From: a virus
Virus genome (UHGV): UHGV-1351772
Reading direction: 5' to 3' (one strand)
DNA length: 64,000 bases
Shown: positions 1 to 22,469 of the stretch, one piece after another
Layout of the letters: each line of letters starts with the position of its first letter
Position numbering within the stretch: the stretch's first letter is position 1
The notes under the pieces: model-generated
Told to the model about the DNA's origin: nothing
Seen by the model: the letters and a program-made list of their open reading frames with translations, nothing else
Database searches by the model: none
Translations under genes and position numbers: made by a program

Positions 1-1184
1 TCGACGAGTGTCATACCGTGGACGAATTTTCGGTCAAACGTTTTAGGAAGTTCTTCAATATCGTAGAACACCTTAAAATGTTTGGTGTCTTGGTAAACCA
101 ACGCAACGTAGTGGGTGTCGTCCAACATAATCGGCTGATGGCGAAGCCCGCGAGCTTCCATTCGGTTGATTAAGGATTCAATCCCATCGTCGGTGGTGAA
201 GGTGTCGTATACACGACCACCTACTTCCAAGAATTCACGTTTAAGGGTTTTGGTGTTTACGCCGTAAAGGTTGCCATCACCGGCACGGATGTTACCGAGG
301 TAACGTTCACGTATCTGGTATTGGGCGACAGGGAGTAATGCTTTTAAACCCTGGTATAAACCAATTTTGGTGTCGGTAGGACGAATAGCGTCTTCACGAC
401 CCATGCACTTAGACCCCGTCGAGAACGAGGACAGTACGTTACGTGTCCCGTTCATTAATTTACGAGACGTCACTTTACGACGTTGGAAACCCCCTTTACC
501 GTCTTGGATGTTAAAGAAATACATCCAGATATCGTTGAAGGTTTGTTGCAGCTTCCAGCGTACGGGGTTAGTTAATTCAACACGGGTTGCCCGGTCAGGG
601 ATCGCCCTGGCGAGAGATACCAACCGACGATACATCCCGCCGATTTCTTCTTCCTGTTCTCTACCATCTTGTCGAATTACTAAATCGCGTAAACCCGCGG
701 GTAACACGAGAACGTATCGACTAAGACTAACGGGACGGAATTTCAAAAAGAAATCCACGGTTTCGTCACGTTGTAGGGACTCGTTACGCTTAGGTTTTAA
801 ATCGTTATAGTGATTGAGGAAGAAGTTAAAACCGGTATCTGCGCCTGGGTCTCCCGGCAAGGCCGGTTCGAAATCTTTTTCTTTTTCGCTCCACGTTGCG
901 TAGCGTTTTCCAGAACAAATTTCTTCGTAGAGTTGTTTGAGTTGGAATAACGCCAAACACACTGTCGGCGAAATGATATCGAGTTTAATATCGATATAAG
1001 AGAAAGTAGAGTCTCGCGCTTCACTCCCCGTGAGTCCAAATATCTCTGTAGAGTAAAGACCTTCGGGGTGAAAGTTTTTTGTTAACCCCTGGAAAGTATC
1101 CGTGGTCGTGACGGGTCGTAATCGCGACACAAGAGACTTGTTTACATTGAGCAGATAAAAGTCAACCCAATTAAGTTTATTCAC
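1..1184 (-). CDS. RNA polymerase beta-prime-like subunit, N-terminal part (partial; gene continues beyond position 1)
   Basis: Absent from ORF track because it runs off the window. Minus-strand GTG at 1184 with AGGAG 8 nt upstream (1192-1196); in-frame stop just upstream; open to position 1. Translation MNKLNWVDFYLL...; segments VLVLPAGLRDLVIRQDGRE..GGMYRRLV and DGKGGFQRRKVTSRKLMNGTRNVL align by eye to bacterial RpoC [27 protein letters not shown] and [24 protein letters not shown]. Confidence 0.6.
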   Translation of the reverse strand, partial: MNKLNWVDFYLLNVNKSLVSRLRPVTTTDTFQGLTKNFHPEGLYSTEIFGLTGSEARDSTFSYIDIKLDIISPTVCLALFQLKQLYEEICSGKRYATWSEKEKDFEPALPGDPGADTGFNFFLNHYNDLKPKRNESLQRDETVDFFLKFRPVSLSRYVLVLPAGLRDLVIRQDGREQEEEIGGMYRRLVSLARAIPDRATRVELTNPVRWKLQQTFNDIWMYFFNIQDGKGGFQRRKVTSRKLMNGTRNVLSSFSTGSKCMGREDAIRPTDTKIGLYQGLKALLPVAQYQIRERYLGNIRAGDGNLYGVNTKTLKREFLEVGGRVYDTFTTDDGIESLINRMEARGLRHQPIMLDDTHYVALVYQDTKHFKVFYDIEELPKTFDRKFVHGMTLV

Positions 1185-1260
1185 GCTAAATCTCCTGATA
1201 CGGATTAAACGTTATGGCTAAAAAGGTAAAGATGATTTCGATGAAATCGATCTTGATAAC

Positions 1261-4200
1261 ATGGACGACTGGGACGATTTTGATGAGCCCCCTCGTCAAC
1301 AAGACCAATCGCGTAACCCGGTCATGGACACATTTCGTGCTGCCCGTAAGTCGGCGTTGTCGACTATCTGGCCCGAAAACAAACGTGATCAGGTTATTTT
1401 AAAAGGGATGCCTAAACCTGCGGCAGAAGCCTACGAAGGCTATCAAAACGTTAAAGCTGCAGGTCAAGACATTCTGGCCCATACGAAAGACGAGATTGAA
1501 AAGACGTCTCGCGTCGTCAAGATGCAAGCGAGACAGTTAGGTCCAACACTGAAACGGTATTTACCGGAATCCGTAACACGGAAAATCGACAAGTGGGCAC
1601 GTAACGATCAAATCGACTATGGGAATTACGATCCTAAACAAGCGATGATGGATCGTGAGCTGGACAGCGTGTTCTCAGGCGCACCGCAAACAGCGGACCA
1701 GCAACGTGAGGCGCAAGAGGGGATGGTTGAAGACCGCTTGCGCGACACGATTAAGGACATGAAGTCCGACGCACTGTTCCAGACCGTAATCGGTATTGCA
1801 AAAGACGTCAACTTAACGACTAGCCTAAGTCGTGGCGTGTTGTTGAATGTTCAGCGTAAGCAGTTAGAGCTGCAATATCGGACGCTGTTTGCTTTGCAGG
1901 ATATTGCGAAACTCAAACAAGACGAGTTTGCACGCAACACCCCGGCATTAGAAGCCATCGTTAAGAACACGGCACTACCCGACTACGCGAAGGAAGAGTT
2001 TTCTGAAATTCGTTGGGCTAATGTAAAACGTAAAGCTGCGGAGTGGATGAACCCCTTACACTACGCAGATAATTTCATTGGCCAGATTCGCGAAAACGCG
2101 AAGAAGAAAATCTCGAACATCTTTAGTGATGGTCGTGGGATTCTAGAACAAGTTCTAGGGATGGCTCAGGAAGATGACTTTGACATGTCGGACAGCTCAT
2201 CGTTGTCTCCTGACCGTCGTAACACAAACTCGCGTAATAAAGCGGCAGGTTTTGCAGGTGGTTGGTTAGCAAAACGTCTCTTACAACCCCAGATCGAACG
2301 ACTTCAGAACTGGACGCGTGGCGAGCTAGAGAAAAACCCAGAAGTCATGAAACGCCTACAGTTGGCGAAGTATGGCTTTGGAAATTTGTCGTCTATTTCT
2401 AACTCGGCAATAGCGGGAGAAACAAGCGGTCCGTTAGCTGATCTGTTTCGACTAATGCACGATTTGGGACTAGTTAACCCGCTACGTCGCGAAACCTTAG
2501 CATTAGACGATCGTTCTGCGGAATCTCTTTCTGCGGCGGCGAAGTTCGATCGTAAAGCTTACCTTAGTATCACAGAAGTTATTCCGACGTTACTGTCCGA
2601 GATTAACAAATCTATTCGTCGTGGGTATGGCGAACACCACGATCAGGTTTATGACCTGACCACGCGCGGTATGGTGGATCGCAAAGTTATTGGTAATCGT
2701 GTACGTAAGGCCGTTGCTAATGACGATCAGCGCAAACGTTTACAGACGTACATCAACGACACTGTCGACTTTATCGATAAAGATAAAACGCTCGATAGGA
2801 AAACACGTCAAGCGTTAGCGGACTACATCGAGTCTCGTGCCTCGGAAGGGAAAGCGTTCGATGTAGGGTCTTTATTGAAAGACCCGATGCACATGTATCG
2901 ATACATGAACGCAAACGCTGTGGAAGCGATTCAGGGTGTTTTAGAAGCCCGTTCTGCGGAACTGGTTGGCGGACACCATGAACTGAGTAATGCGATTTCA
3001 AACAAAATCGCCGCTATCCAGTCAACGATTCGTGCACGTCAAGACACGGTTGATGCTGCGTCTGTGATTTACGGCGAGAACGCACTTCGTGATTCCGGTA
3101 TTTTTAAATACGATGCGAAGAAAGACATTTTCGAGGTCGATAAGGACATTAACGATCCCTATACGTTATTTAATGACCTGTCGATGGGTAAGACCCGCTC
3201 TGGACGTTCGTTAACCCGTGAGCAAGAGATTCAGCGTAAATTGCAAAACGGTTCTGCGCTGGGTGATTACTTGCGACGGATGGGTGCAGGCGCAGAGCCG
3301 AGCTTTGAAGACAAAGAACTGTCCAATGTACGTGGCGGTGGAAAAGGAGGTCGTGGTCGCGGTTTAAGCGCACGCCAACTCGCTGCGGTACTTTATGGAG
3401 AGAAATCCACTAACTTTGTTGAACTGTTAAGCAGTCGTCCAGACACGAACGCCGGGTTGGAACAGCAATTCGACCGTTTGATTGATGCTGTACGTAAACA
3501 GCCCGAATCTAGCACAGTGCAAGATATCCTCAAACACGTTAAGAACATGGATGAGGAAGGTATTCTCCTAGCCAGTTTAGGCGGTAGTCGTGATGACGGT
3601 GACGAATCTGAAAGTTCGAGTGACTCGGGTCGTAAACGTCGTCGTAAACGCAAACGTATTGTGCTAGGCGAGACAGGCTTGTTACGCCGTTGGGCTGGGG
3701 TGCTTTGGGATACCGGTTCAGGTGTAGGGCGGTTTGGTAAGAATCTGTTCCTACGTGGGAAAGATCGTCTGCAGGCTTTAGGTGGTTTTATCCGTGGGAA
3801 ATTCTCAGGCGGCTCCTCCGAAGGACCCGGTGTATTTAGCCGACTGAAAGGGTTAGTAACAGGTACTCTATCGACAGGTTGGAATTCTGCTGTAGCTTTC
3901 GGTAAAGGCGTTTTAGGTGTTCGTGATATTTACGATGAACGTGGCAACGTCGTATTACAAGGAAGTCGTTTAGAAGCTGGGGAATATTACCAGGCTGACC
4001 CGAAAACTGAGAAGCTGATTCAACTTAAAACCCTCGACGATATTAAACTGGGACGTGATATTGTCGATGAAGCGGGTAATTTAATCTTAGCTGCTGCTGA
4101 TTTGGCTGCCGCAGGTAAACTGCGTTTCTACAAAGGTGGTAAAGTTCAAGCGCTTTTCCAGTACATTTCTGGGAAAGCAGGAACGGCGGTAAACAAAGCT

Positions 4201-7200
4201 GTGACTTTACCGAAGAAACTTTTAGGCTTCATTTCACCTAAAGCGGCTTCGTTGTTCGAGAAAGCACGTGAGTGGCTAAATGAGGTTCCAGAGGGCGCAG
4301 AGAAAACCCGTTTACAAAGCATGATTTCCCGTGTAACGGGAATGCCAGCGCGTTTGTGGAACAATGCAAAACGCGGGTTTGAGAAGCTCAAAGAGTTGGC
4401 TTCTGATAACCCTCTGACACGTTGGTGGCAGAACCGTAAGGAAGGGGGTTCTGGTGGTGGGTTTAGTGTGTTCTCATGGTCGAACGGCCGTAAAACTAAC
4501 CACATCTTAATCCGTATCTACAAACTCCTTAACCGGAGATTGCCAGGTGAACCAGAAGATGATACCTGGACAGAACAGATGGAGCGGAATACGGGAGCCA
4601 GTTCAGTTAAAGGATTATTCCAACGTGCTAAAGACATACGCGATGGGTTCCGTGAACATTTTCAGGGGTTCCGGGATTGGCGCGGTCGGATGCGTGACAG
4701 AATGTCCCGTTATCGCGGTGCGGTAGGCGATCGTCTTTCTCGTTGGGGCGGTACCGCACGTGGTTGGTTTGATCGTTTCCGTGGCCGTGCAAGCGATATG
4801 GTCGATACTTTCCGCGATCCGCGTTACGATATCGGCACACGTTATCGAATGGAGAGTCGTTTAGCAGGACGCGATGACGATGTTGCTGAGTTTTATCGTC
4901 AACACATCTACGCAAGAGGTAAGGTGTCTAAAACACGTATCATCGATGCGGCAAAAGAAGACTTAGACACCGTAACGGATAGCGCTGGACGTGTGATTAA
5001 TAAAGGGAAACAGAAAGCCCGTAGCGTTGGGTCAGCTTTACTGGAACGCCTGAACCGAATGGTTAATCTTCAGGAAATGTCATGGTTTAACACCATGCGT
5101 GATTCTGCGGAAAAAGCAGGTGCTTCGGATGGTTTGTTAAGAACTATGTTCAGTAAGTTCGGCCAACGCAATAAACCGCCTGCCAGTGATGAAAAACGTG
5201 ATTACTTCCAGTTCTTCCGACGCCGTCGTCGTTCTAAGGAAGAGGAAAAGGCTAAGAAAGAAGCCGAGAAGAAAGGTGGTAAGCGCGGGGTGATGGATTT
5301 CCTTAAAGGACTGCCGTTGGTAGGACCGATTGTGAGTATTTTAGGCACAGTAGGTTCAATCTTAGGTAAAGTCGCGAAATGGGGAATCTTTAAGCCGGTT
5401 GGGTTTGCAGGCAAAGCGTTGTGGAACGTTGGTAAGTTTGCTGTGACTCGTTTGGCTGTCCCTGCGGTGAGTGCTGTCGCGACGGCAGCATCTGCAGTGG
5501 TAACTGCGGTTGGCTGGCCGATTATCGGTTTGGTCGCTGCAGGCGCTGCGCTATCTTGGTTTGCATATAAAACTGCAACCCGTGTGAATGCTCAGTATTT
5601 GGATAACATGCGATTGGCACAGTACGGATTTAGAGATCACGATGAGTGGTCTTCCGACGATGGCGCAAAAGCACGTTATTTAGAAGACAACTTGAAACCG
5701 TACATCTCTTATACAGAGAATGGCCAAGCACAGTTGCGTGGTTTGTCCGGTGACGACGTGAAGAAACTGGCCGAAGGGTTTGGTACTAACGTAGAAGACA
5801 AAGGCGAAATGCTGGCGTTTAGTGCGTTTATGCTACAACGTTTTGTGCCGATCTATTTACGTTGGATTACGGCACTGAAATCCATGGATAATGATATCGC
5901 GTTAGCAGATGTCGGTAATCCTGCGAAAGTGTCGAAGGCAGACATGTTGAATATCTTCAACAAAATGAAGATGTCGAAAGATGCGCCTGCATTCCGTGCA
6001 TTAGAAGATCCCCGCAAGGTTAACCAAGGTTGGTTCTCTAAAGCGTGGGATTTCGTAACGTTTACCCCGGCCGAGTTTTTGTCAGGCGAAGAAGTCGTTG
6101 AAGCGCAAGAACGCGTGCTTCGTTCGATTAACATGCGTCGTGATGAAAAACGTAAGGATGTAAATGCTACAGGCGGTGTGGCCGAAGGACACAAAGTTGC
6201 TTCTGTGGCAGAATCGACCCAAGCGTTGGCTCAAGCGGATGCGGAACGCAACAAAGAAGTTGCGAAAGTCGAAGGTTGGGAAGACGGCACCGAACAAGTT
6301 CAGGTTCAAGTCGACTGGAGAAGCTTACCTAAAGAAACCGATCTCCGTGATTTGGAGTCCGTAAGGTTGAAAGCTTATGGTGCGGTGAGTATTACTCAAA
6401 CAACCCGTAACCTCTATACGCTCTTGGAACGTCAAGTGTTGCAAGACACCGATGTGAAAAGCTGTACGTATAAAGGCGACTGGAAACGTGCGATTGCGGT
6501 GATTGCGCCTGACGCCATTGGTGGGCCAAAAGAAGATCGGTACAAGAACTGGTTCTATAACCGCTTCTTACCTGTCTTCATGACGTACGTGGTTGGGGTG
6601 AAACGTTATGTCCCTGCTGCCGATCCGATGGACCTACGCGTTACGGGTGGGTTCTTGTATGAAATCGCACTGATGATGCGTGGTGCATACAACCTGAAAG
6701 GGGGTATTCGTCAGTCAGTGTGGGAGGTACCGTTTAACCCGTTAGGGGGAGACGCTAACACCGACGCCGGTTCAGTTGCAACGGAGTTAGAGAACCTGAA
6801 AGAACTGTCTAAGGAAGCTGATTTGGCAGTACGTAAAACGCTGCGTGCTACGCCTTCTGCGGGTTTCCGTGTGAACTGGCAGCGAAAAGATCGCGCGACT
6901 CAGATGTTCTTGACCGACGATGAGAAGGAGCAACCGTCTCGACCACAGATGAACACCTCCTCCTCTTATCGTGACCTATTGCAACCAGCGGCAAACGACG
7001 GTGGGAATTACGGCACACCAAACGATTTGGCCGGTGCTTACGGTCAGATGGGAGCTAAGAATTACGCTGCATTTACTACCGGTAACTTCGGCGTGAAACT
7101 TGGCGATATGCAAGACGGTGACTATAAAACGTTAGCGGCTAAGTATCCAATTTCAACGTTGGGTGACGGATTGAAGCCTAACTTGAATGCGGTTGCAGCA

Positions 7201-8337
7201 CTGATTACAGACGTAGCGAAGATGATGGGTGTTCCTCCAGCGTTAGCACTGGGAATGGCACAAGCAGAATCTGGGCTTAGATACGGTATCAAAGCTAAAG
7301 GAAGTTCTGCGGCTGGCTTGTTCCAGTTCATCAACGATACCTGGGGTGCGCAGATGAAAGCTTATGCGAGACGTTATGGTATCCCGCAAACCAACCAGTA
7401 TGACCCGTGGGCGAATGCTCTGCTTGGCGTCCGTCATATTCGTGATAATATCGAGAAAGCCAGAAAGGATTTAGGTGGTATCGATCCTCCAGGTGCAGCT
7501 GTTTACCTCTACCACTTCTTAGGACAAGGTGGCGGTAAGAAATTCCTGCAAGAATGGAAGCGTGATCCGAACGGGCCATCGTCGCGTGGTGCGTCGGCCG
7601 ATCAAATCGCGGCAAACAGCACAATTTTCTACAAGAATGGAAAATTGCGTAGTTTGGATGAAGTGCTCAACATCATGGGTGGTAAGATTGGTGCTGTAGG
7701 AACAAACGCGATCGCGGCTAACCAGGCATCGCTGAAAGACTTGACGACAGGCGTAACACCAATGCCGTCTTCCCCGGCTATCGCTGCAGGCGCTGCTAAC
7801 GATCCGTCTATCACAGGCCCGGCAGATAACCTGCCAGCCGCGAACGAGGCGAATCGCGACTCCGCTTTAGCAGACAAAGGCGCGATGGGTGCTGAAGATA
7901 TTAAAGCTGCAACTGGTGGTGGTCCGGCTGTGCCGAGTCCTGGCGGCGATGTCACGCCGAGCGATGCGTCAGTTGTTGTAGAGACGGTGGGTCAAAATGC
8001 ACGTGCTGATGGCCTGGCCGAAGAAGAGGTTGCTAAAGTAAAAGAAGGTGCTAGACAGCAGATGGAGAAATCGGCCCGTCCTGCACCAACGGTAACTTCC
8101 GATGCTCAGAGCGGTTCTACAGTGAACAGTGGTGATCCGATCAGTGTACAACAGCTGGCGGTTGCAAAAGAGTCTGCAGGCTATCTGAAAGAGATTGTAA
8201 CAATTCTTCGCCAGCGGCCACAGGCTATGCAAAACGGTCCGGCTAACCCGGCGTCAACCGCTCCGGGTTCGGCGTCACGTAACGTGTCAATAACTCAACC
8301 CGCGCCGCAACTCGACGTTAGTCGTAAATCAGCGTAA
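1261..8337 (+). CDS. Giant virion-associated protein (2358 aa) with lytic transglycosylase domain; tail lysin / tape-measure-like
   Basis: Single uninterrupted ORF. Long helical N-terminal half with Gly-rich and basic RKRRRKRKR segments, hydrophobic cluster about aa 1335-1440, SLT motif near aa 1980-2100, Ala/Pro/Gly-rich C-terminus. Size and domain order resemble phiKZ gp181-type tail lysins (from memory, not searched). Confidence 0.8.
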   Translation: MDDWDDFDEPPRQQDQSRNPVMDTFRAARKSALSTIWPENKRDQVILKGMPKPAAEAYEGYQNVKAAGQDILAHTKDEIEKTSRVVKMQARQLGPTLKRYLPESVTRKIDKWARNDQIDYGNYDPKQAMMDRELDSVFSGAPQTADQQREAQEGMVEDRLRDTIKDMKSDALFQTVIGIAKDVNLTTSLSRGVLLNVQRKQLELQYRTLFALQDIAKLKQDEFARNTPALEAIVKNTALPDYAKEEFSEIRWANVKRKAAEWMNPLHYADNFIGQIRENAKKKISNIFSDGRGILEQVLGMAQEDDFDMSDSSSLSPDRRNTNSRNKAAGFAGGWLAKRLLQPQIERLQNWTRGELEKNPEVMKRLQLAKYGFGNLSSISNSAIAGETSGPLADLFRLMHDLGLVNPLRRETLALDDRSAESLSAAAKFDRKAYLSITEVIPTLLSEINKSIRRGYGEHHDQVYDLTTRGMVDRKVIGNRVRKAVANDDQRKRLQTYINDTVDFIDKDKTLDRKTRQALADYIESRASEGKAFDVGSLLKDPMHMYRYMNANAVEAIQGVLEARSAELVGGHHELSNAISNKIAAIQSTIRARQDTVDAASVIYGENALRDSGIFKYDAKKDIFEVDKDINDPYTLFNDLSMGKTRSGRSLTREQEIQRKLQNGSALGDYLRRMGAGAEPSFEDKELSNVRGGGKGGRGRGLSARQLAAVLYGEKSTNFVELLSSRPDTNAGLEQQFDRLIDAVRKQPESSTVQDILKHVKNMDEEGILLASLGGSRDDGDESESSSDSGRKRRRKRKRIVLGETGLLRRWAGVLWDTGSGVGRFGKNLFLRGKDRLQALGGFIRGKFSGGSSEGPGVFSRLKGLVTGTLSTGWNSAVAFGKGVLGVRDIYDERGNVVLQGSRLEAGEYYQADPKTEKLIQLKTLDDIKLGRDIVDEAGNLILAAADLAAAGKLRFYKGGKVQALFQYISGKAGTAVNKAVTLPKKLLGFISPKAASLFEKAREWLNEVPEGAEKTRLQSMISRVTGMPARLWNNAKRGFEKLKELASDNPLTRWWQNRKEGGSGGGFSVFSWSNGRKTNHILIRIYKLLNRRLPGEPEDDTWTEQMERNTGASSVKGLFQRAKDIRDGFREHFQGFRDWRGRMRDRMSRYRGAVGDRLSRWGGTARGWFDRFRGRASDMVDTFRDPRYDIGTRYRMESRLAGRDDDVAEFYRQHIYARGKVSKTRIIDAAKEDLDTVTDSAGRVINKGKQKARSVGSALLERLNRMVNLQEMSWFNTMRDSAEKAGASDGLLRTMFSKFGQRNKPPASDEKRDYFQFFRRRRRSKEEEKAKKEAEKKGGKRGVMDFLKGLPLVGPIVSILGTVGSILGKVAKWGIFKPVGFAGKALWNVGKFAVTRLAVPAVSAVATAASAVVTAVGWPIIGLVAAGAALSWFAYKTATRVNAQYLDNMRLAQYGFRDHDEWSSDDGAKARYLEDNLKPYISYTENGQAQLRGLSGDDVKKLAEGFGTNVEDKGEMLAFSAFMLQRFVPIYLRWITALKSMDNDIALADVGNPAKVSKADMLNIFNKMKMSKDAPAFRALEDPRKVNQGWFSKAWDFVTFTPAEFLSGEEVVEAQERVLRSINMRRDEKRKDVNATGGVAEGHKVASVAESTQALAQADAERNKEVAKVEGWEDGTEQVQVQVDWRSLPKETDLRDLESVRLKAYGAVSITQTTRNLYTLLERQVLQDTDVKSCTYKGDWKRAIAVIAPDAIGGPKEDRYKNWFYNRFLPVFMTYVVGVKRYVPAADPMDLRVTGGFLYEIALMMRGAYNLKGGIRQSVWEVPFNPLGGDANTDAGSVATELENLKELSKEADLAVRKTLRATPSAGFRVNWQRKDRATQMFLTDDEKEQPSRPQMNTSSSYRDLLQPAANDGGNYGTPNDLAGAYGQMGAKNYAAFTTGNFGVKLGDMQDGDYKTLAAKYPISTLGDGLKPNLNAVAALITDVAKMMGVPPALALGMAQAESGLRYGIKAKGSSAAGLFQFINDTWGAQMKAYARRYGIPQTNQYDPWANALLGVRHIRDNIEKARKDLGGIDPPGAAVYLYHFLGQGGGKKFLQEWKRDPNGPSSRGASADQIAANSTIFYKNGKLRSLDEVLNIMGGKIGAVGTNAIAANQASLKDLTTGVTPMPSSPAIAAGAANDPSITGPADNLPAANEANRDSALADKGAMGAEDIKAATGGGPAVPSPGGDVTPSDASVVVETVGQNARADGLAEEEVAKVKEGARQQMEKSARPAPTVTSDAQSGSTVNSGDPISVQQLAVAKESAGYLKEIVTILRQRPQAMQNGPANPASTAPGSASRNVSITQPAPQLDVSRKSA
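5305..5570 (+). other. Hydrophobic/transmembrane-like segment cluster inside the giant protein
   Basis: GLPLVGPIVSILGTVGSILGKVAKWGIF...AVPAVSAVATAASAVVTAVGWPIIGLVAAGAALSWFAY: several consecutive hydrophobic helices. Confidence 0.5.
7198..7572 (+). other. SLT (family 1 lytic transglycosylase) domain within giant protein
   Basis: GMAQAESGLRYGIKAKGSSAAGLFQFINDTWGAQMKAYARRYGIP ... LYHFLGQGGG: E-S catalytic motif and GLFQF..TW pattern typical of lysozyme-like lytic transglycosylases. Confidence 0.7.
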
Positions 8338-8345
8338 TAACAACA

Positions 8346-8373
8346 GGGGGGTAGGAAACTACCCCCGTTTTTT
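8346..8373 (+). terminator. Rho-independent terminator after giant gene
   Basis: GGGGGTAG-GAAA-CTACCCCC stem-loop followed by TTTTTT. Confidence 0.7.
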
Positions 8374-8384
8374 AGAGGTATAAC

Positions 8385-10556
8385 GTGGACGCTAGATCAG
8401 CTAACGACTCAAGCTGGGTCAGAAATCTATTTAAGGGAGAGTTGGAAGGCCGAGATGAACGTTTTCTGGCCTTGCGACGCTACTCTAACGGTATGATGTC
8501 TTTTGAAGATACGACCATGGGCGGTAGCAAAGCGATTAATAGCCCTCCACAGTTTACGTGGTTTGCAGACCCCCCATCAACAGGGGCATTTGCACGACCC
8601 GGTAATCGTGAAGCGGAGAAAAAGGCGTTGGCTAACGGTATGCCAACCTCTTCTTATCGCTTAGGGACGTATTATTACGAAAGCATTAACCAAAATTCGT
8701 TTTACGTACATTGTCGCTTCGGCAAGCCGAAATATCTGGGAATGGCCGCATTCTTTGCGAATATGTACGATTCCAACTTAGCGTATTTAGCGCGTACGGG
8801 CGATTATCCGGGAATGATCCGCACGATAGCAAGTTATATCGGTGCGGCAGCGATATGGGCCACTGTAGGCACTGTCGCTTTTGCGGTAATTTTAATTACT
8901 CCTCGCATTCTCGCAGCAGCGTTGAATAAACAAACGTCGCGTTACTATTACGTTAAACCGACGATGCATCTGTATTTGCGTGCTGTACAGAACATCTTGA
9001 ATACGCAGCTTGTTTATCGTCGTTTGGTTCCCACGGGTATCTTAGGTACCTTCCAGGTTAGTCAAGACGGCGATGGAAAAGGGAACAAAAAAGCACGTGA
9101 TGATGCTTTTGAAGCGTTGCCGGAGGTTTGGAAAAAAGACGGTGAATTCGATGTCTTTAAGATGATCAACCGTTATCAAACCCTGGCGAACTATCAGAAT
9201 CAACGTTTAAAAGAACTTCGTAAGCAGTCCTCAAGTGACGATGATTTCGCCGAGCGGATACGAAATTTCTATTTGGACAGCACATATGGTGCGGCTTCGT
9301 ATTCTGACGATGTGAGAAATTACGAAGTTTCTTTGCAAGACATGGAGCGGTTAGCTGCATCCGAGCGCGGTGGCTATGCGGCGAAAGACGCGTCGGGCAA
9401 AGATATTAATAGTGTTGATGAACTGGAAAAAGGGGTTCTCGATGCGTTTAGTTCCGGGCTACAAACTGGGGGAACGGCAAGCGACCTAGAGGCGCAGGCG
9501 GCAGAAATCCAAAACAAAATGAACGAGGATTTGGAAAATGCCGATGCGAGTAACCTCACCGAGGGACAACAGATTACGATACAGTCCTGGGCGGATAAAG
9601 GTAAAGAATCGACTATGGAGACGTTCTTCGGCGACTTTGTTAAAGTGGTTGGCGAACAGATTGAAGGGATTAAAGCACAGGCGCTGTCCGAAATCTACAA
9701 CGGTTCTCAGTGGGTAACCTGGAGAATCGATGGGAAGGACACCGTCTCTCGTTCGTTCTCTAACTCTACAAAAGAGCCGGAGATCTCTAGCACAGTTAAC
9801 TCAATGACAGCGAAAGCTCGTCAACTTGAAGTAAACTTGTCCGGCGGGCAAACCGGCTTCAACGCGGTCGATTCATTAATTACGGGCTTTAAGTCCGTAA
9901 TGCGTGGGTTAGCAGATACGTTGCATCTAACGGGGATTATGTCGTTATATAATTCATCCGTCATTGACTTCCCAGAGGTGTGGGACAGTTCAGATGCCTC
10001 GGGCGATGATATTAACTTGACAATACCTTTACGTGCATGGTCTGGAAGTGACCTGGATATCTTCCAGGAAATTCTAGTGCCACTATCCTTTTGGATCGCC
10101 GCAGTATGTCCAATTGCGACAGGTAAACAATCGTTCACTCATCCGTTTTATCTGGAGTGTTACTCGCAAGGTCGATTCTCGTTCCGTAATGCTATCGTAA
10201 CATCTTTGTCTTTACAATTCGGTGTGGGTGGTTTAGGTTGGCGACCAGGTGATTCTGTTCCACTGTCTTGTGATATCAATGTTACCATCCGTGATTTGTC
10301 GCGTGTGATGTATATGCCCATCGTTACAGACACAGGTGTTTGGGACGACGATAATAAATTCAGTGAGTTTATGGCGTGTTTGGGTGCAGCGACGTTGTAC
10401 GAACGTACGAACGGTATAGAGCGTGCCAAGATCCAAGGAAGCATTTGGGCGCAGAACTGGGCATCTGCGTGGTCACAGGGCAGTTTTATTAACTCTGCGT
10501 TTGATGTGCTTCCAGCACGCCAGATCGCGAACATCTTCTTGCCGCAAGCACGTTAA
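8385..10556 (+). CDS. Hypothetical protein, 723 aa, probable virion/tail protein (one predicted TM segment)
   Basis: GTG start at 8385 with AGAGG upstream; long ORF co-directional with and immediately after the giant virion gene; hydrophobic stretch AAIWATVGTVAFAVILITPRILAAAL. Confidence 0.65.
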   Translation: MDARSANDSSWVRNLFKGELEGRDERFLALRRYSNGMMSFEDTTMGGSKAINSPPQFTWFADPPSTGAFARPGNREAEKKALANGMPTSSYRLGTYYYESINQNSFYVHCRFGKPKYLGMAAFFANMYDSNLAYLARTGDYPGMIRTIASYIGAAAIWATVGTVAFAVILITPRILAAALNKQTSRYYYVKPTMHLYLRAVQNILNTQLVYRRLVPTGILGTFQVSQDGDGKGNKKARDDAFEALPEVWKKDGEFDVFKMINRYQTLANYQNQRLKELRKQSSSDDDFAERIRNFYLDSTYGAASYSDDVRNYEVSLQDMERLAASERGGYAAKDASGKDINSVDELEKGVLDAFSSGLQTGGTASDLEAQAAEIQNKMNEDLENADASNLTEGQQITIQSWADKGKESTMETFFGDFVKVVGEQIEGIKAQALSEIYNGSQWVTWRIDGKDTVSRSFSNSTKEPEISSTVNSMTAKARQLEVNLSGGQTGFNAVDSLITGFKSVMRGLADTLHLTGIMSLYNSSVIDFPEVWDSSDASGDDINLTIPLRAWSGSDLDIFQEILVPLSFWIAAVCPIATGKQSFTHPFYLECYSQGRFSFRNAIVTSLSLQFGVGGLGWRPGDSVPLSCDINVTIRDLSRVMYMPIVTDTGVWDDDNKFSEFMACLGAATLYERTNGIERAKIQGSIWAQNWASAWSQGSFINSAFDVLPARQIANIFLPQAR

Positions 10557-10572
10557 TGTTTGAGAGGAAATA

Positions 10573-11136
10573 ATGGCTAATACGCTATTAGGTAAATCAG
10601 GAAAACAACTGGTTTATGAGTTATTAGTAAAAAAGAATCCTGGTTTGGTAGAGAAAGGTATTACAATCGATAAGTTGAATTTTGGTACACCGTCACATAT
10701 TCCTGCGGTAGAAACACCAGAAACCCAATTTACACGATTAAATACCCAACTTAGCGTCCAGGGAATTATTGAACAGAAAACGTTTGGTAAAATCGACGTT
10801 ATTTATCGTCGATTGGATTTAGAGCACCTCTTAGGTGACTTTGTAGTTTCTGTTGCGGGTGTTAATGCGGCTACGGTATCTGAGGTACTACAGCTTTTCC
10901 GCAATAAGTACAATTTACAGATTACCGACGATGAAGTTGAGAACCCAACAGCTGCACCAGACAGCAAAGATAAAACCATCATTATCATGAATGGGACATC
11001 TTTGGCATGGACAGGGCGGCTGGAAGTGTACTTAACAGAGCTGCCGTCCGACGGTAAGGATATTTCGAAGTTGATTAAAGTCACTGAACTTGACGGTTTG
11101 ACGTATATCTCTTCTGGGATTGTTCCAGGCGCTTAA
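10573..11136 (+). CDS. Hypothetical protein, 187 aa
   Basis: ATG with GAGG upstream, 16 nt after previous stop; last gene of plus-strand module before terminator. Confidence 0.65.
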   Translation: MANTLLGKSGKQLVYELLVKKNPGLVEKGITIDKLNFGTPSHIPAVETPETQFTRLNTQLSVQGIIEQKTFGKIDVIYRRLDLEHLLGDFVVSVAGVNAATVSEVLQLFRNKYNLQITDDEVENPTAAPDSKDKTIIIMNGTSLAWTGRLEVYLTELPSDGKDISKLIKVTELDGLTYISSGIVPGA

Positions 11137-11157
11137 AAAAGAAAAAAAATAAGAAAG

Positions 11158-11192
11158 TCTACCTACCTCCGAAAGGAGGTAGGTACTTTTAT
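11158..11192. terminator. Bidirectional rho-independent terminator between convergent modules
   Basis: TACCTACCTCC-GAAA-GGAGGTAGGTA stem with T-run on plus side (CTTTTATTTATTT) and A-run upstream (U-run on minus strand). Confidence 0.75.
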
Positions 11193-12023
11193 TTATTTCG
11201 CCAGATCTGCTTCTTTTACAAAGATACCGTCGGCGTTCAGATAACCTTTACGGTCTTTGATTTCGTGCCAGGCCAAAGAGAAACAATGGCGAATGTTAAG
11301 ACGATAATAGAGAGCGAGTCGCGCAAGACGATGTAAAGCCCAACCTAACGTAACAGTACCCAGTTCAGTACGTAAGAACGCAGTAGCGAAGATTTCGGTA
11401 GCCTCTAAATACAACTGGTGTGGATATTTGGTATCGTTTAAACGTTCTTCAACGTCAGCGACATCATCTACCTGCAATTGTAAACCGCGTTCGATGACTT
11501 CAGCGGTTGTCATTCCGCCAGTCACTCTGTCCTTATCCAGTTCCAGGATGTTTACCAGAACCACCAACGCATCGCCGATGCCGTCCATGATCAGTTCAGG
11601 TTTGTTTTTGCTGATACCTGTTGCAATCTCACCAAATTCTTCATAGAACTTTGTGATTTGAGTTTCCAGTTTACCGTTGTCGAGAATACCACGTTCTTTA
11701 GACCAACCTTTAACACGTTCTACACAGTTTTCAATAGAGTAGACCGGAACAGATTCTGTATGCATTACCGTGCCGTTGTAAACAGCATCGGTAAGCTTAA
11801 TAGGCGCTACAATTGTTTCGATGTCCAGTTCTTGATTACCGGTGTGACGTTTACCTTCTACACGAATACGGTTGGTACCAGGGTTTACACCAATTGTGTA
11901 AATAGCATCGAACTGTACTGCATTCTCATTCAGAGCGCGCAGTTGTGCGTTAACTTCTTCCAGGTGCTGACCAGGATTAACCACGATGTTGTAAATAGTG
12001 TTGATGTCAAAACGTTCGCCCAT
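11193..12023 (-). CDS. Putative MazG-like all-alpha nucleoside triphosphate pyrophosphohydrolase
   Basis: 276 aa; EEFGE ... DGIGDALVVLVNILE resembles the EExxE...D motifs of the MazG/dimeric dUTPase-like family; GGAG SD upstream of ATG 12023. Confidence 0.45.
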   Translation of the reverse strand: MGERFDINTIYNIVVNPGQHLEEVNAQLRALNENAVQFDAIYTIGVNPGTNRIRVEGKRHTGNQELDIETIVAPIKLTDAVYNGTVMHTESVPVYSIENCVERVKGWSKERGILDNGKLETQITKFYEEFGEIATGISKNKPELIMDGIGDALVVLVNILELDKDRVTGGMTTAEVIERGLQLQVDDVADVEERLNDTKYPHQLYLEATEIFATAFLRTELGTVTLGWALHRLARLALYYRLNIRHCFSLAWHEIKDRKGYLNADGIFVKEADLAK

Positions 12024-12044
12024 CTTAAAACTCCATTAGTTTAA

Positions 12045-12084
12045 ACAAAAAGAATAAGGATTAGGGGTGCTACATAAGCACCCC
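12045..12084 (-). terminator. Rho-independent terminator (minus strand)
   Basis: GGGGTGC-TACATAA-GCACCCC hairpin followed on minus strand by a U-rich tract. Confidence 0.55.
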
Positions 12085-12092
12085 ATGAACTG

Positions 12093-12455
12093 TTAAATTT
12101 TGCAAGCCCCGCCTGAGCAGTTATCGTCTTCCGTGGTTGGATCAGCACCCTTCTCTACGGTAGCTTCCGGGTCTAACCCAGGGATTGCAAATTCGTCAGT
12201 TTCTTTAACGTTTTCTACTTTAACTTCTTCAGACATTTTAGTTCCCAAATTTCTTACAAAGGGGTTAACAGTTTTGATTTTAAGATTGGCAAATGGTGAT
12301 AGTAGCATTGCCAACCGTGGTAGACTTGGCGGTGCCTCTTTATATTGTACAACGCGCACCTTCGACCTACCAGGACCCTTACGTACACGGTTGTAGCCAA
12401 TAAAATATACAGTACCTGTAAAGTATCTAAGGCTGTGAAAGCGTGGTTTCTTCAT
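12093..12455 (-). CDS. Hypothetical small protein (120 aa from ATG 12455; alternative start 12236 gives 47 aa)
   Basis: AAGGAAG SD upstream of ATG 12455; basic N-terminal half, acidic C-terminal half ending CSGGACKI. Start uncertain. Confidence 0.35.
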   Translation of the reverse strand: MKKPRFHSLRYFTGTVYFIGYNRVRKGPGRSKVRVVQYKEAPPSLPRLAMLLSPFANLKIKTVNPFVRNLGTKMSEEVKVENVKETDEFAIPGLDPEATVEKGADPTTEDDNCSGGACKI

Positions 12456-12575
12456 CGCACTTCCTTTTCGACAACTAACCCATTAAATGTATTACGACGT
12501 CTTTAGTTACTGAGTTTGCCAGTAAGCGGAAGAACTTCATGTAACGGAAAATGCTAAAGAAAACCCCAGCGTTAT

Positions 12576-12920
12576 CTACAATAACAAGACTGTATTTTTC
12601 TTTTCTGTACCCATTTGGTAACCGATGATTTGAGTGATACTCTTCGGTAAGTCTTCGAGACCCAAACGGAATAGCACATCGTCCTCTAAGAACCCTTTTG
12701 GATTAACGAACAATACTTTCCCTTTATGGTTCTTAGCTAACTCGACAGCAAAGTCTGTAAGTCCTGTCTGTCTACCTGTACCGTAGCGGATAGTACGGAA
12801 CTCAGATAAAGCTTTGGCTCCATAACGATCGGTAAACGGATTATCTTTAGAATCCAGATCAGTTAAACCTTTTGATAATTCTTCTACTACGATGTTATAG
12901 TTAACATGAGTTTTAGACAT
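12576..12920 (-). CDS. Hypothetical protein, 114 aa
   Basis: ATG 12920 with AAAGGA SD; no recognised motif. Confidence 0.6.
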   Translation of the reverse strand: MSKTHVNYNIVVEELSKGLTDLDSKDNPFTDRYGAKALSEFRTIRYGTGRQTGLTDFAVELAKNHKGKVLFVNPKGFLEDDVLFRLGLEDLPKSITQIIGYQMGTEKKNTVLLL

Positions 12921-12954
12921 TTCATTGTTCCTTTTAATTACAAGCGAAATAACT

Positions 12955-13251
12955 TTATTGAAAATCTCGTTTGGCCTTGCTGATGATTTGAGATATTCGG
13001 CTTGGCGTCACTCCGTGTATTTCGGCCAATTTCTTGTTACTTAGGCCACCCAATTTACCAACAAGAATATTCAATACACGTAAGTCTTTTAACGTTGCCG
13101 AAATCTTTTCTAAGATTTCGATATCAGCTTGATCAAACTTACCTTTGGTCTGCAATGCTATCCCAGCACGCTCGGTAATAGTTTTTAGCTCAGCTAATCG
13201 ACTAATGCCGAAAGAAGTTAACTCCGCGTACGATTTCTCATTAATCATCAT
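12955..13251 (-). CDS. Small helix-turn-helix protein with sigma-70 region-4-like motif (putative transcription regulator)
   Basis: 98 aa; C-terminal LSNKKLAEIHGVTPSRISQIISKAKRD resembles the region 4.2 HTH of sigma-70 family and LuxR-type regulators. Confidence 0.5.
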   Translation of the reverse strand: MMINEKSYAELTSFGISRLAELKTITERAGIALQTKGKFDQADIEILEKISATLKDLRVLNILVGKLGGLSNKKLAEIHGVTPSRISQIISKAKRDFQ

Positions 13252-13258
13252 GTACCCC

Positions 13259-14293: not shown

Positions 14294-14610
14294 TTGTTAT
14301 TATTCCCCATTCGTTTCGTTAAAATGTCTAAATTACGTTGCGCTTGCTCAGGACTAAAAATAATGTTTTCCTGGCTATACGTTACATGGAAATGTTTTTT
14401 GTTAACAATCTCAACCTTAAGGCCACGAACTTCGAATTGCCGTTTAGCCTCTTCAACCTTTTTTGGTGAGATTCTAAGAAGACCCGGAAATAGTTCGTCT
14501 GCAGGAACGTAGTATTTGATTTCCTTAGTTTCGGGAATTAATTCGATTCTATCTAAACTGACGCTTATAATCTCGTCAATCTTTTTCTTTATATTGTCGT
14601 TCACAGTCAT
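14290..14610 (-). CDS. Hypothetical protein, 106 aa
   Basis: ATGA start/stop overlap with thyA-like gene (translational coupling). Confidence 0.6.
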
Positions 14611-14918
14611 TAGATTTTGTCCTTTTCGAGTTCAGTTAAAATTTCAAATAGGTCTGCGTTGGACTGCAGTACGATTTCACTGCCTTCTGCTACAACGGTA
14701 ATTGAAGGCTTCTTACCACGTAGCAAGAACTCCCAACGCATTGTTCTTACGTGGCTGTCGAGTAACTGCTTTAATTTGTGGTTAACTTCGACTTCCAATT
14801 TGCCCAGTAACTGAGGTGTAATAGCTTCGCCTGAGTTTTTGTTATAAAGTGTACGCACTAAAGAACGTAAAGAATAACCAATGCACTGCGAAATTGCCCA
14901 ACCCGAATAGTTTTCCAT
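14610..14918 (-). CDS. Hypothetical protein, 102 aa
   Basis: AAGGA SD; TAATG overlap with downstream gene. Confidence 0.6.
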   Translation of the reverse strand: MENYSGWAISQCIGYSLRSLVRTLYNKNSGEAITPQLLGKLEVEVNHKLKQLLDSHVRTMRWEFLLRGKKPSITVVAEGSEIVLQSNADLFEILTELEKDKI

Positions 14919-14919
14919 G

Positions 14920-15465: not shown

Positions 15466-15479
15466 TTCCGATACCCGAT

Positions 15480-15944: not shown

Positions 15945-16004
15945 AATTGTTTCTCCGCTTAAACGTAGTCTTGGGAGACATAAGTTTGTTCCCAACTGTA
16001 AAAA

Positions 16005-21128: not shown

Positions 21129-21804
21129 ATAAAGCGGCATCTCGTGGGTCGACACCGACCCACTCTGCCATAAACCGGATATGTTCCTTAAACGGGTTAA
21201 CCCCGTCTTGTTTGATTTGTTCAACCAATTCCCCGGTCAGTTCTGGTGTGAGCATGGCAGGGTGTGTGATGGTAAAGCTCGGAATCGGTTTTTTCAAGTG
21301 CGTAGCATTAAGCTTAATCCACTCGAACCAATCGTACATTATCCAGCAATCCCACGCCAACGACAATCTCCCCGGTGTGAGATCTTCTAACGACCAAGAC
21401 ACTAATTCAACTTGTACGTTATTGTAGTACATCCGAAACAGATTCAAAAAGGCTTGAAGTTCTTCGCCCGTTAAATCCGTATAAGGCCACGTATTGATGG
21501 TCAGAGTGGGTTTTTCAATTGGCGAATGCATTTCGATTTCAAGCAACATACACTCGAATTCGTTTTTCATTGTTGCCAATAATTCAGTAGGCTGCGCATT
21601 AATCAACGCGCGCTTATCCCGCTTCCGCCACACTTCATCCCATTTTTCAAATCCAAGTACGCCAGCCCAAGCTTCTGTATAGCGACGACGATAAACGTCG
21701 TAGTCTAGCAATGTTAAGCTTTCAGGCTTAACGGCTTTTACCCAACCTAAACGCGTATCAAATAACGTATCAATATCGATTAAGAAACGCCGAGATAATC
21801 TCAT
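21082..21804 (-). CDS. Hypothetical protein, 240 aa
   Basis: ATGA coupling with upstream gene. Confidence 0.55.
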   Translation of the reverse strand: MRLSRRFLIDIDTLFDTRLGWVKAVKPESLTLLDYDVYRRRYTEAWAGVLGFEKWDEVWRKRDKRALINAQPTELLATMKNEFECMLLEIEMHSPIEKPTLTINTWPYTDLTGEELQAFLNLFRMYYNNVQVELVSWSLEDLTPGRLSLAWDCWIMYDWFEWIKLNATHLKKPIPSFTITHPAMLTPELTGELVEQIKQDGVNPFKEHIRFMAEWVGVDPRDAALFSLARPAQDVQTPPS

Positions 21805-22469
21805 GACGGATGGCCTATGTTGTTACCGATATGCATCGCTTTTAGGTACGCCGACCACGTACGCGTTGCTTTAGAACTCGTTCGCTCCGCCCCAGGCAAA
21901 TCAATACGCCCTTTACCGGTTTGGCGTAGCGACTGATAGAAAGCACGTTGTAATGCGTCGTTACCACCACGCGCCCACAAGAACTCTTTCAGCGTCCAGT
22001 CGTGACCATCGGAATACATGATGTATGCTTCTGGGAAGGACACCCCAGATGCTTTGGAAGGACCAACGACTTGACCGGAGAGCTTATCGCGGACTTTGTC
22101 GTTTTTCGCAACCGCCATTTTCTTTTCTTGCATCTGTGTCTGACGACGGACAGGCAAGCGTAAGACTAAGTGAGGGTAACGAGTACGGTGATAGACACCC
22201 GTTTTTGGTTCTGTTAACCAGAGTCGTTGCTCCAGGTTTACCCCGAGAATTTTGCACACCTCGATATTGCGCAGGTGGTCAATTTCGACTTTACTTCCCA
22301 CCGGGTTGTAAATAGGTAAACCGTTACGAAGTCGATTAAACTGTTCGTCGGTCATTCGTGCGAAGGCTTTCTTCGCGGCTTCAGCATTAATGCCAGAAGG
22401 GTCTACCAACTTTAAGATTTGTAAGGCGTAGGCTTCCGCCTTTTTACGCCGTGCTGGTTCGAGTTTCAT
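21801..22469 (-). CDS. Hypothetical protein, 222 aa
   Basis: ATG 22469 with AAGGCGG SD. Confidence 0.55.
   Translation of the reverse strand: MKLEPARRKKAEAYALQILKLVDPSGINAEAAKKAFARMTDEQFNRLRNGLPIYNPVGSKVEIDHLRNIEVCKILGVNLEQRLWLTEPKTGVYHRTRYPHLVLRLPVRRQTQMQEKKMAVAKNDKVRDKLSGQVVGPSKASGVSFPEAYIMYSDGHDWTLKEFLWARGGNDALQRAFYQSLRQTGKGRIDLPGAERTSSKATRTWSAYLKAMHIGNNIGHPS

What the first reader, a model, noticed from the sequence alone, without database searches (positions are those of the whole stretch)
1..1184. Multisubunit RNA polymerase beta-prime-like fragment missed by the ORF track
The largest unannotated coding stretch in the window is a minus-strand GTG-initiated ORF running off the left edge. 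Its translation aligns to the conserved region of bacterial RpoC around VLPxLPPxLRPLV and GKQGRFRQ, but lacks the N-terminal zinc-finger cysteines. Phage-encoded split multisubunit RNA polymerases are a hallmark of phiKZ-like jumbo phages that build a nucleus-like compartment, which frames the whole window as jumbo-phage DNA.
Basis: partly seen in the sequence, partly recalled or inferred. Interest (0 to 1): 0.5.

Follow-up and report, generated by a model that had tools for sequence, protein, structure and literature searches.

The report
Jumbo phage virion RNA polymerase subunit
The stretch is the first three-quarters of a well-known jumbo-phage gene, the N-terminal beta-prime-like piece of the RNA polymerase that SPN3US/phiKZ-type phages carry inside their capsids; it is real but ordinary, and it looked unannotated only because the window edge cuts it.

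Summary
Confirmed and already explained. Window 1-1184 (minus strand) holds 394 codons that start at GTG 1184-1182, with a GGAG 7 nt upstream, and run off the left edge. The product matches PHROG 2986 at E=6e-170. It is 86.5% identical to Salmonella phage SPN3US gp240. [quoted passage not shown] A profile of 44 homologues hits the phage AR9 beta-prime N subunit (3e-14), plastid RpoC1 (1e-11) and E. coli beta-prime residues 217-356 (3e-6). An AlphaFold model of a 95%-identical relative also hits beta-prime chains. The N-terminal zinc ribbon is indeed absent. Two public assemblies of the same phage supply the missing 145 codons, which carry the catalytic DYDGD loop and end where cyanobacterial and plastid beta-prime is split. 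The whole window is collinear with SPN3US and holds a second vRNAP subunit, beta-C, at 21801-22469. Pfam, NCBIfam and single-sequence PDB searches see nothing, which explains why relatives are labelled 'hypothetical' or 'beta subunit'. This is a new member of a known kind, of low interest.

The parts
1..1184 (-). 5' part (394 of 539 codons) of the gene for the N-terminal beta-prime-like subunit of the virion RNA polymerase (orthologue of SPN3US gp240). The gene continues beyond the left edge of the window.
   Evidence: Translation. PHROG 2986 at E=6e-170. 86.5% aa identity to SPN3US YP_009153534. The full 539-aa gene is seen in L002 at 8305-9924 and in L006. Window 1-11294 is identical to L002 8741-20034.
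1182..1184 (-). GTG start codon
   Evidence: It is the first start codon after the in-frame TAA at 1214-1212. The SPN3US RefSeq model starts at the equivalent codon. N-terminal residues 4-18 are conserved in homologues.
1192..1195 (-). GGAG Shine-Dalgarno-like sequence, 7 nt upstream of the GTG
   Evidence: Read directly from the sequence.
1035..1064 (-). EGLYSTEIFG, the counterpart of the beta-prime N-terminal 'GLFCxRIFGP' motif. The zinc ribbon that follows it in cellular beta-prime is missing here.
   Evidence: Profile positions 24-53 align to plastid RpoC1 residues 36-65, but this stretch on its own is not significant (1.7 bits); the AR9 beta-prime N alignment is significant. There is no cysteine cluster.
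678..707 (-). VLPAGLRDLV, the counterpart of bacterial beta-prime [13 protein letters not shown]
   Evidence: Aligned to plastid RpoC1 'LPVLPPELRPI' and lies inside the E. coli beta-prime 217-356 match. Coordinates.
471..500 (-). GKGGFQRRKV (continuing to NGTRNV at nt 435-452), the counterpart of beta-prime [23 protein letters not shown]
   Evidence: Aligned to plastid '[23 protein letters not shown]' and to AR9 'GKKGFLRKNIMGSRINFSARNVI'. G229, K230, R241, G246, T247, R248 and V250 are invariant in 44 homologues.
1185..1260 (.). 76-bp, 66% A+T divergent intergenic region between the RNAP gene and the tail-fibre gene (1261-8337, + strand)
   Evidence: No promoter consensus could be defined.
21801..22469 (-). 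Second vRNAP subunit in the window: the C-terminal beta-like fragment (orthologue of SPN3US gp218)
   Evidence: 82.8% aa identity to SPN3US 189763-190425, annotated 'RNA polymerase beta subunit'. PHROG 3233 at E=6e-93. gp218 is assigned as beta-C of the vRNAP in PMC5105663.

Best explanation
Window 1-1184 (minus strand) is the first 394 codons of a 539-codon gene. It encodes the N-terminal beta-prime-like subunit of the virion-packaged multisubunit RNA polymerase (vRNAP) of an SPN3US-related, phiKZ-type (Chimalliviridae) jumbo phage.

Shown here: the gene is intact. It carries the beta-prime clamp-core motifs in the window and the DYDGD Mg-binding catalytic loop just past the window edge. It ends about 55 residues after that loop, at the split site also used by cyanobacterial and plastid beta-prime. 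It lies next to the beta-N subunit gene.

Inferred from the 86.5%-identical SPN3US gp240 and from phiKZ/AR9 work: the protein assembles with beta-N, beta-C (window 21801-22469), beta-prime-M and beta-prime-C pieces into an enzyme without alpha, omega or sigma. That enzyme is packed into the capsid late in infection and injected with the DNA. It then transcribes the early genes from AT-rich phage promoters independently of host RNA polymerase, before the phage nucleus and the second, non-virion polymerase take over.
For: - Family match: PHROG 2986 at E=6e-170.
- Orthology: 86.5% identity over all 394 residues to SPN3US gp240, and exactly one matching place in each of 314 of the 315 phage genomes hit, so one orthologue is detected per genome.
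- Synteny: same gene order as SPN3US, with a divergent tail-fibre gene on one side and the beta-N gene, then the gp244 and prohead-protease homologues, on the other.
- Similarity to beta-prime: the family profile hits the AR9 beta-prime N subunit 7s00_d/7s01_d at 3e-14, plastid RpoC1 at 1e-11 and E. coli beta-prime 217-356 at 3e-6. A second matched stretch covers NADFDGD.
- Structure: an AlphaFold2 model of the 95%-identical P0001 (pLDDT 83) hits AR9 7s00_d at 1.9e-16 and bacterial, cyanobacterial and plastid beta-prime at about 1e-12, probability 1.0.
- Catalytic loop: DYDGD at aa 482 of 539 in the full-length protein.
- Published experiments on the orthologue: gp240 is found by mass spectrometry in SPN3US heads, is lost together with gp42, gp218 and gp244 in a gp241 amber mutant, and is assigned as beta-prime N carrying the catalytic motif (PMC5105663).
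- Published mechanism: vRNAP is injected and transcribes early genes; beta-prime is split after the DPBB as in cyanobacteria (PMC7598289; PMC13282480).
Against: - There is no experimental evidence for this particular phage. Virion packaging and early-gene transcription are transferred from SPN3US, phiKZ and AR9.
- The catalytic motif is not inside the window; it was seen only in other assemblies of the same phage.
- Pfam, NCBIfam and single-sequence PDB searches give no hit.
- Foldseek TM-scores are low (about 0.3), because an isolated multi-domain subunit is being compared with chains from complexes.
- The beta-prime-M subunit (gp42 homologue) and the non-virion enzyme were not looked for outside the window.
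Confidence: 0.93

Rival explanations
1. It is the N-terminal beta-prime piece of the non-virion RNA polymerase (nvRNAP), which is made after infection and transcribes middle and late genes inside the phage nucleus.
For: The closest solved structure is the AR9 non-virion beta-prime N subunit. Both enzymes share the same beta-prime split site (PMC7598289).
Against: The 86.5%-identical SPN3US gp240 is physically in the virion head and co-depends on gp241 (PMC5105663). The gene sits in the conserved vRNAP/virion gene cluster: beta-N, gp244 homologue, prohead protease and tail fibre. tblastn finds only one place per genome, so the nvRNAP paralogue is too diverged to be confused with it. AR9 nvRNAP tops the PDB list simply because the profile search of the PDB returned no closer phage chain, so no vRNAP structure appears to be deposited.
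Confidence: 0.03
2. It is a decaying or inactive remnant (pseudogene) of an RNAP gene, or a captured fragment of a host rpoC, and not a working subunit.
For: It lacks the beta-prime zinc ribbon and gets no hit from Pfam RNA polymerase models. One assembly of the phage shows a frameshift in the neighbouring beta-N gene.
Against: The ORF is intact at 539 codons in two assemblies. There are 26 invariant and many near-invariant residues across 44 homologues down to 37% identity, including the GK...R...GTR.V and D.DGD motifs. Amino-acid identity (86%) far exceeds nucleotide identity (about 73-75%) to relatives, as expected under purifying selection. Loss of the zinc ribbon is shared by the whole phage family and by AR9. 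The neighbouring frameshift disappears in the other assembly. The closest cellular beta-prime is only about 12-14% identical.
Confidence: 0.02
3. It belongs to a different class of phage RNAP related to the multisubunit fold: a single-chain YonO-like enzyme or a crAss-like giant virion RNAP.
For: Those enzymes are also highly diverged DPBB polymerases that Pfam misses (my own knowledge).
Against: The protein ends right after the first DPBB and needs separate beta-like partners, which are encoded next to it and at 21801-22469. Orthology to the five-piece SPN3US vRNAP is direct.
Confidence: 0.01

Closest known systems
Salmonella phage SPN3US gp240 (YP_009153534; vRNAP beta-prime N-terminal fragment), with its orthologues in Erwinia phages phiEaH2, Asesino and Stratton and in Cronobacter phage CR5
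   Same: 86.5% (SPN3US), 84.5% (Asesino, phiEaH2) and 72% (CR5) amino-acid identity over the whole fragment. Same length class (537-543 aa), same GTG start context, same neighbours, and the same motifs including DYDGD.
   Different: It comes from a different phage. Nucleotide identity to anything in the phage collection is only about 73%, and only over parts of the query. Many neighbouring genes are 30-65% identical or have no SPN3US counterpart. The genome is about 228.6 kb instead of 240 kb.
phiKZ-type Pseudomonas phage vRNAP beta-prime N subunit (phiKZ gp180 by my recollection; the gene number was not verified here)
   Same: Homologous over 97% of the fragment at about 32-33% identity, E about 1e-52, one copy per genome. 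Same role in the published five-piece vRNAP scheme (PMC5105663 Fig. 7 legend).
   Different: Much more diverged. The host is Pseudomonas.
Bacillus phage AR9 non-virion RNAP beta-prime N subunit (PDB 7S00/7S01 chain d)
   Same: Closest solved structure, with profile E=3e-14 and Foldseek E=1.9e-16. It shares the Zn-ribbon-less N terminus, the GKKGF.R motif and the DYDGD loop.
   Different: It belongs to the other (non-virion) enzyme of a uracil-DNA phage that forms no nucleus. Identity is only 14-15%.
Cellular beta-prime: bacterial RpoC, cyanobacterial gamma, plastid RpoC1
   Same: Conserved clamp-core motifs (VLP..LRP, GK.GRFR...GKR.....R.V) and the NADFDGD catalytic loop. The polypeptide ends at the same place as cyanobacterial gamma and plastid RpoC1 (PMC7598289).
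   Different: No N-terminal zinc ribbon. About 12-14% identity. Not recognised by Pfam or NCBIfam models. It works without alpha, omega and sigma partners (literature).

Membership tests
Jumbo-phage (Chimalliviridae/phiKZ-type) virion RNAP, beta-prime N-terminal subunit (SPN3US gp240 family, PHROG 2986) | Full-length sequence homology to family members | tested here: met
   PHROG 2986 at E=6e-170, covering profile positions 2-394 of 539. 86.5% identity to gp240.
Jumbo-phage (Chimalliviridae/phiKZ-type) virion RNAP, beta-prime N-terminal subunit (SPN3US gp240 family, PHROG 2986) | Beta-prime conserved motifs of the clamp core (VLP..LR, GK.G..R...R...G.R.V) | tested here: met
   Present at aa 160-169 and 229-250, and aligned to AR9, plastid and E. 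coli beta-prime by a profile search.
Jumbo-phage (Chimalliviridae/phiKZ-type) virion RNAP, beta-prime N-terminal subunit (SPN3US gp240 family, PHROG 2986) | Catalytic D.DGD loop of the double-psi beta-barrel, with the polypeptide ending shortly after it (the cyanobacterial-type split) | tested here: met
   Not in the window. In the same phage's contigs (L002, L006) DYDGD is at aa 482 of 539 and is followed by a stop codon.
Jumbo-phage (Chimalliviridae/phiKZ-type) virion RNAP, beta-prime N-terminal subunit (SPN3US gp240 family, PHROG 2986) | Genome encodes the partner vRNAP pieces (beta-N, beta-C, beta-prime-M, beta-prime-C) | tested here: inconclusive
   Three of the four partners were found. 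Beta-N lies immediately downstream (1388 aa in L006). Beta-C is at window 21801-22469. The gp244 homologue is at L002 1585-2313. The beta-prime-M (gp42) homologue lies outside the sequence examined and was not looked for.
Jumbo-phage (Chimalliviridae/phiKZ-type) virion RNAP, beta-prime N-terminal subunit (SPN3US gp240 family, PHROG 2986) | Protein is packaged in the virion and injected | not testable with these tools
   Shown by mass spectrometry only for SPN3US gp240 and for other phages (PMC5105663).
Jumbo-phage non-virion RNAP, beta-prime N subunit | Orthology to the early-expressed, non-packaged set | tested here: not met
   The orthologue is the virion protein gp240. Only one tblastn place per genome, located in the virion gene cluster.
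Cellular RpoC (bacterial beta-prime) | N-terminal four-cysteine zinc ribbon after the GLFC.RIFGP motif | tested here: not met
   Only 11 residues and no cysteine lie between IFG (aa 48-50) and the next conserved block. The fragment has three non-conserved Cys in total.
Cellular RpoC (bacterial beta-prime) | Recognised by curated RNA polymerase Rpb1/beta-prime domain models; single chain of about 1200-1500 aa | tested here: not met
   No Pfam or NCBIfam hit even at E<=10 / E<=1. The protein is 539 aa.

The most novel reading that the evidence does not exclude
The gene itself is ordinary. The phage that carries it may belong to an undescribed, roughly 220-228-kb SPN3US-related lineage of nucleus-forming jumbo phages. 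Genome-sized contigs of this lineage turn up in many Salmonella, Shigella and E. coli isolate assemblies, and it has been deposited as a 222-kb 'plasmid' in complete E. coli and Enterobacter genomes. That pattern would imply a stable carrier state (pseudolysogeny) of a supposedly strictly lytic jumbo phage in clinical and wildlife enterobacteria.
Probability: 0.25. Interest if true: 0.35.

Novelty: new member of a known kind. Interest (0 to 1): 0.1.

Why it matters
It matters little as a discovery. The family, its split architecture, its virion packaging and its role in host-independent early transcription are all published.

The check is still useful in three ways:
- It fixes the identity of the whole window as a Chimalliviridae jumbo phage related to SPN3US.
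- It shows that standard domain libraries (Pfam, NCBIfam) are blind to this family, so relatives are routinely labelled 'hypothetical', 'beta subunit' or 'alpha chain'.
- It confirms that the profile search of the PDB returned no virion-RNAP chain; the closest solved relative is the AR9 non-virion enzyme.

Tried and rejected
- Domain and structure searches with a single sequence: Pfam, NCBIfam and phmmer against PDB gave no hits. This was rejected as evidence against RpoC homology once the family profile and the structure model gave clear beta-prime hits.
- Apparent extra split of the neighbouring beta-N gene into 439 + 950 aa in Logan contig L002. I considered a real sixth subunit or a -1 frameshift at G-AAA-AAG. 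The NCBI assembly of the same phage has one more A and an intact 1388-aa ORF, so this is an assembly-level discrepancy.
- Exact-pattern scans for that site in viral contigs and genome contigs found nothing.
It worked through the cluster-member id.
- A k-mer search of 33 upstream regions for a shared phage promoter motif gave no convincing consensus, only RBS-like and terminator-stem words.
- tRNA and Rfam scans of the window found nothing.
- Pfam on 20 neighbouring ORFs gave essentially nothing.

Full report
**Observation.** On the minus strand, window 3-1184 translates into 394 codons without a stop and runs off the left edge. The frame opens after an in-frame TAA at 1214-1212. The first start codon is GTG at 1184-1182, and a GGAG at 1195-1192 lies 7 nt upstream of it. 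The ORF lister omits ORFs that run off the source, so the ORF is absent. 'Missed by the ORF track' is therefore an edge effect and not a gene-calling failure.

- VLPAGLRDLV at aa 160-169 (nt 678-707)
- GKGGFQRRKV at aa 229-238 (nt 471-500)
- EGLYSTEIFG at aa 41-50, the counterpart of the beta-prime N-terminal GLFC.RIFGP block

The fragment has only three cysteines (76, 90, 260). None is conserved in the family, and none forms the CxC...CxxC zinc ribbon that follows that block in cellular beta-prime. A second GTG at codon 19 corresponds to an older, shorter gene model (gp240 is listed as 519 aa in PMC5105663). Residues 4-18 are conserved in 44 homologues, which favours the upstream start.

**Identity.** Pfam, NCBIfam and a single-sequence search of PDB sequences return nothing, even for the full-length protein. 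PHROGs gives family 2986, 'RNA polymerase beta subunit', at E=6e-170 over residues 3-393. tblastn finds a match in 315 phage genomes, one place in each of 314 of them. The best are 86.5% identical over all 394 residues, in SPN3US and its Salmonella and E. coli relatives. Erwinia phages Asesino and phiEaH2 are at 84.5%, CR5 at 72%, and phiKZ-type Pseudomonas phages at about 33%. In SPN3US the match is the 537-aa gene at 212357-213970. It is transcribed divergently from the tail-fibre gene and is followed by a 1401-aa 'RNA polymerase beta subunit' gene.

**Similarity to RpoC.** I aligned 44 homologues spanning 96-37% identity (A1) and searched PDB sequences with the profile.

| Target | E-value | Region matched |
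|---|---|---|
| Phage AR9 non-virion RNAP, beta-prime N subunit (7S00/7S01 chain d) | 3e-14 | profile 35-254 |
| Plastid RpoC1 | 1e-11 | 'LPVLPPELRPI' and '[23 protein letters not shown]' opposite the two motifs |
| Cyanobacterial gamma | 4.5e-7 to 8.9e-7 | profile 153-252 |
| Bacterial beta-prime | about 5e-8 to 3e-6 | E. coli residues 217-356 against profile 139-253 |

A second matched stretch aligns the family's 'aDfDGD' with NADFDGD.

An AlphaFold2 model of P0001 (541 aa, 95.4% identical to this phage's protein, mean pLDDT 83) hits AR9 7S00_d at 1.9e-16 in Foldseek. It also hits E. coli, cyanobacterial and plastid beta-prime chains at about 1e-12, all with probability 1.0. TM-scores are low (about 0.3), as expected when an isolated multi-domain subunit is compared with chains from complexes.

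**The rest of the gene.** The adjacent 2358-aa tail-fibre protein (window 1261-8337) is encoded identically on Logan contig ERR975218_44 (L002). Window 1-11294 is base-for-base identical to L002 8741-20034. In L002 the gene runs from 9924 to 8305 and encodes 539 aa. The missing 145 residues contain 'GGLGGDYDGDTGS', with DYDGD at aa 482, and the protein stops 53 residues after that motif. That is the split site after the double-psi beta-barrel that jumbo-phage beta-prime pieces share with cyanobacterial beta-prime (PMC7598289). The same 539-aa protein is on a 228,572-bp NCBI contig, GCA_001292545.1 CYGL01000001.1 (L006).

**Which polymerase.** Thomas et al. 2016 (PMC5105663) showed by mass spectrometry that SPN3US gp240 is in the virion head. 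It disappears from particles, together with gp42, gp218 and gp244, when gene 241 carries an amber mutation. They assign the pieces as follows: gp240 is beta-prime N (it carries the catalytic motif), gp42 beta-prime M, gp244 beta-prime C, gp241 beta-N and gp218 beta-C of the virion RNAP.

The gene order here is the same. Beta-N lies downstream, followed by a 97-aa gene, a 486-aa gene, the gp244 homologue and the S80 prohead protease. Because tblastn finds essentially one place per genome, the non-virion paralogue cannot be confused with it. AR9's non-virion subunit tops the structure lists because the profile search returned no closer phage chain, so no virion RNAP structure appears to be among the solved chains.

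**Context.** Window ORFs are collinear, in inverted orientation, with SPN3US from about 212 kb down to about 150 kb. Amino-acid identities range from about 28% to 83%, and several blocks have no SPN3US match. A second vRNAP subunit lies at 21801-22469 on the minus strand. It is 82.8% identical to gp218 and matches PHROG 3233 at E=6e-93. SPN3US and Asesino are among the phages experimentally shown to build a phage nucleus (PMC13282480).

**Mechanism.**

*Shown here:*
- an intact, conserved beta-prime N-terminal piece with clamp-core motifs and a catalytic Asp triad
- no zinc ribbon
- the gene sits among virion genes

*Inferred from the literature:*
- The piece assembles with four other beta and beta-prime fragments, without alpha, omega or sigma.
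- The enzyme is packaged into the capsid and injected with the DNA.
- It transcribes early genes from AT-rich promoters in the early-infection vesicle, making infection independent of host RNAP.
- The non-virion RNAP then takes over inside the nucleus.

I could not define a promoter motif from the window's intergenic regions. Sigma-70-like sites in the first 20 kb number 16, against 26.1 +/- 5.0 in shuffles. This is weakly consistent with host-independent transcription.

**Side issue followed up.** In L002 the beta-N gene appears as two ORFs of 439 and 950 aa, where SPN3US and the 96%-related phage L004 have one. The cause is a run of five A's (CCGAAAAAG, L002 7030-7041). In the NCBI assembly of the same phage (L006) the run has six A's and the ORF is intact at 1388 aa. 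Conversely, L006 has an extra T that splits the tail-fibre gene, which is intact in the window. These are single-base assembly discrepancies or minor variants, and I do not count them as evidence of a new split.

**Novelty and verdict.** The feature is an orthologue of a published, experimentally studied subunit. The phage is new relative to the phage collection: only about 73% nucleotide identity over parts of the query. Its closest relatives are unnamed contigs in enterobacterial assemblies, where the protein is labelled 'hypothetical'. I file it as a new member of a known kind, with interest about 0.1.

Noticed in passing
window 21801-22469 (-): A second virion-RNAP subunit gene lies in the window. 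It is the beta-C fragment, 82.8% identical to SPN3US gp218, and matches PHROG 3233 at E=6e-93. Pfam and NCBIfam do not recognise it.
   Followed up: yes
L002 7030-7041 (about 1.7 kb left of the window) and L006 position 1003 (inside the tail-fibre gene, window 1261-8337): Two assemblies of the same phage differ by exactly two single-base indels. The Logan contig has A5 where the NCBI contig has A6, which splits the beta-N gene into 439 + 950 aa. The NCBI contig has an extra T that splits the tail-fibre gene into 656 + 1690 aa. The window carries the intact tail-fibre version. These are probably assembly errors or minor variants.
   Followed up: yes
window 1-8000; relatives NZ_CP173450.1 (E. 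coli 98232, 221,873 bp) and NZ_CP134650.1 (Enterobacter ludwigii, 222,441 bp): Relatives at about 78% nucleotide identity are deposited as non-mobilizable 222-kb 'plasmids' in complete bacterial genomes. The 90%-identity protein cluster has 207 members from Salmonella, Shigella and E. coli isolate assemblies, on contigs of 220-228 kb. This suggests a jumbo-phage lineage that frequently co-purifies with, or persists in, enterobacterial isolates.
   Followed up: partly
window 1-1184 and database orthologues: Annotation of the family is inconsistent. Orthologues are labelled 'RNA polymerase beta subunit', 'alpha chain', 'RNA polymerase III large subunit', 'RNA polymerase II subunit' or 'hypothetical protein', although the protein is a beta-prime N-terminal piece. 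SPN3US gp240 is 519 aa in the 2016 paper but 537 aa in RefSeq. Conservation of residues 4-18 supports the longer model.
   Followed up: partly
window 16405-16432, 35753-35775, 36369-36386, 53598-53616; also 8347-8366, 11160-11185, 22744-22787: Intergenic G+C-rich hairpins with a shared stem (CTACYC...GRGTAG: 4 found, 0.05 expected) are mostly followed by T-runs. They are probably intrinsic-terminator-like elements reused between genes. Some sit between convergent genes and could act in both directions.
   Followed up: partly
window 14290-16373, 25498-28420, 35784-37862, 46009-47389, 49369-51874: These blocks of minus-strand ORFs have no detectable SPN3US counterpart and no Pfam domain. Only function-unknown PHROGs match, or nothing. 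They look like lineage-specific accessory genes. ORFs 25498-26553 and 26423-27349 are overlapping tandem paralogues (both PHROG 6160).
   Followed up: partly
window 22788-24284 (-), 41396-43975 (-), 13259-14293 (-), 11193-12023 (-), 30407-32664 (-): DNA and nucleotide-metabolism genes are conserved with SPN3US: a UvsX-like recombinase (PHROG 97), an SbcC/SMC-like protein (gp186 homologue), thymidylate synthase, a MazG-like pyrophosphohydrolase, and a ribonuclease/exoribonuclease pair.
   Followed up: no
window 1-20000: Sigma-70-type promoter-like sites are fewer than in shuffled sequence (16 against 26.1 +/- 5.0). The window has no tRNA genes and no Rfam matches.
   Followed up: no
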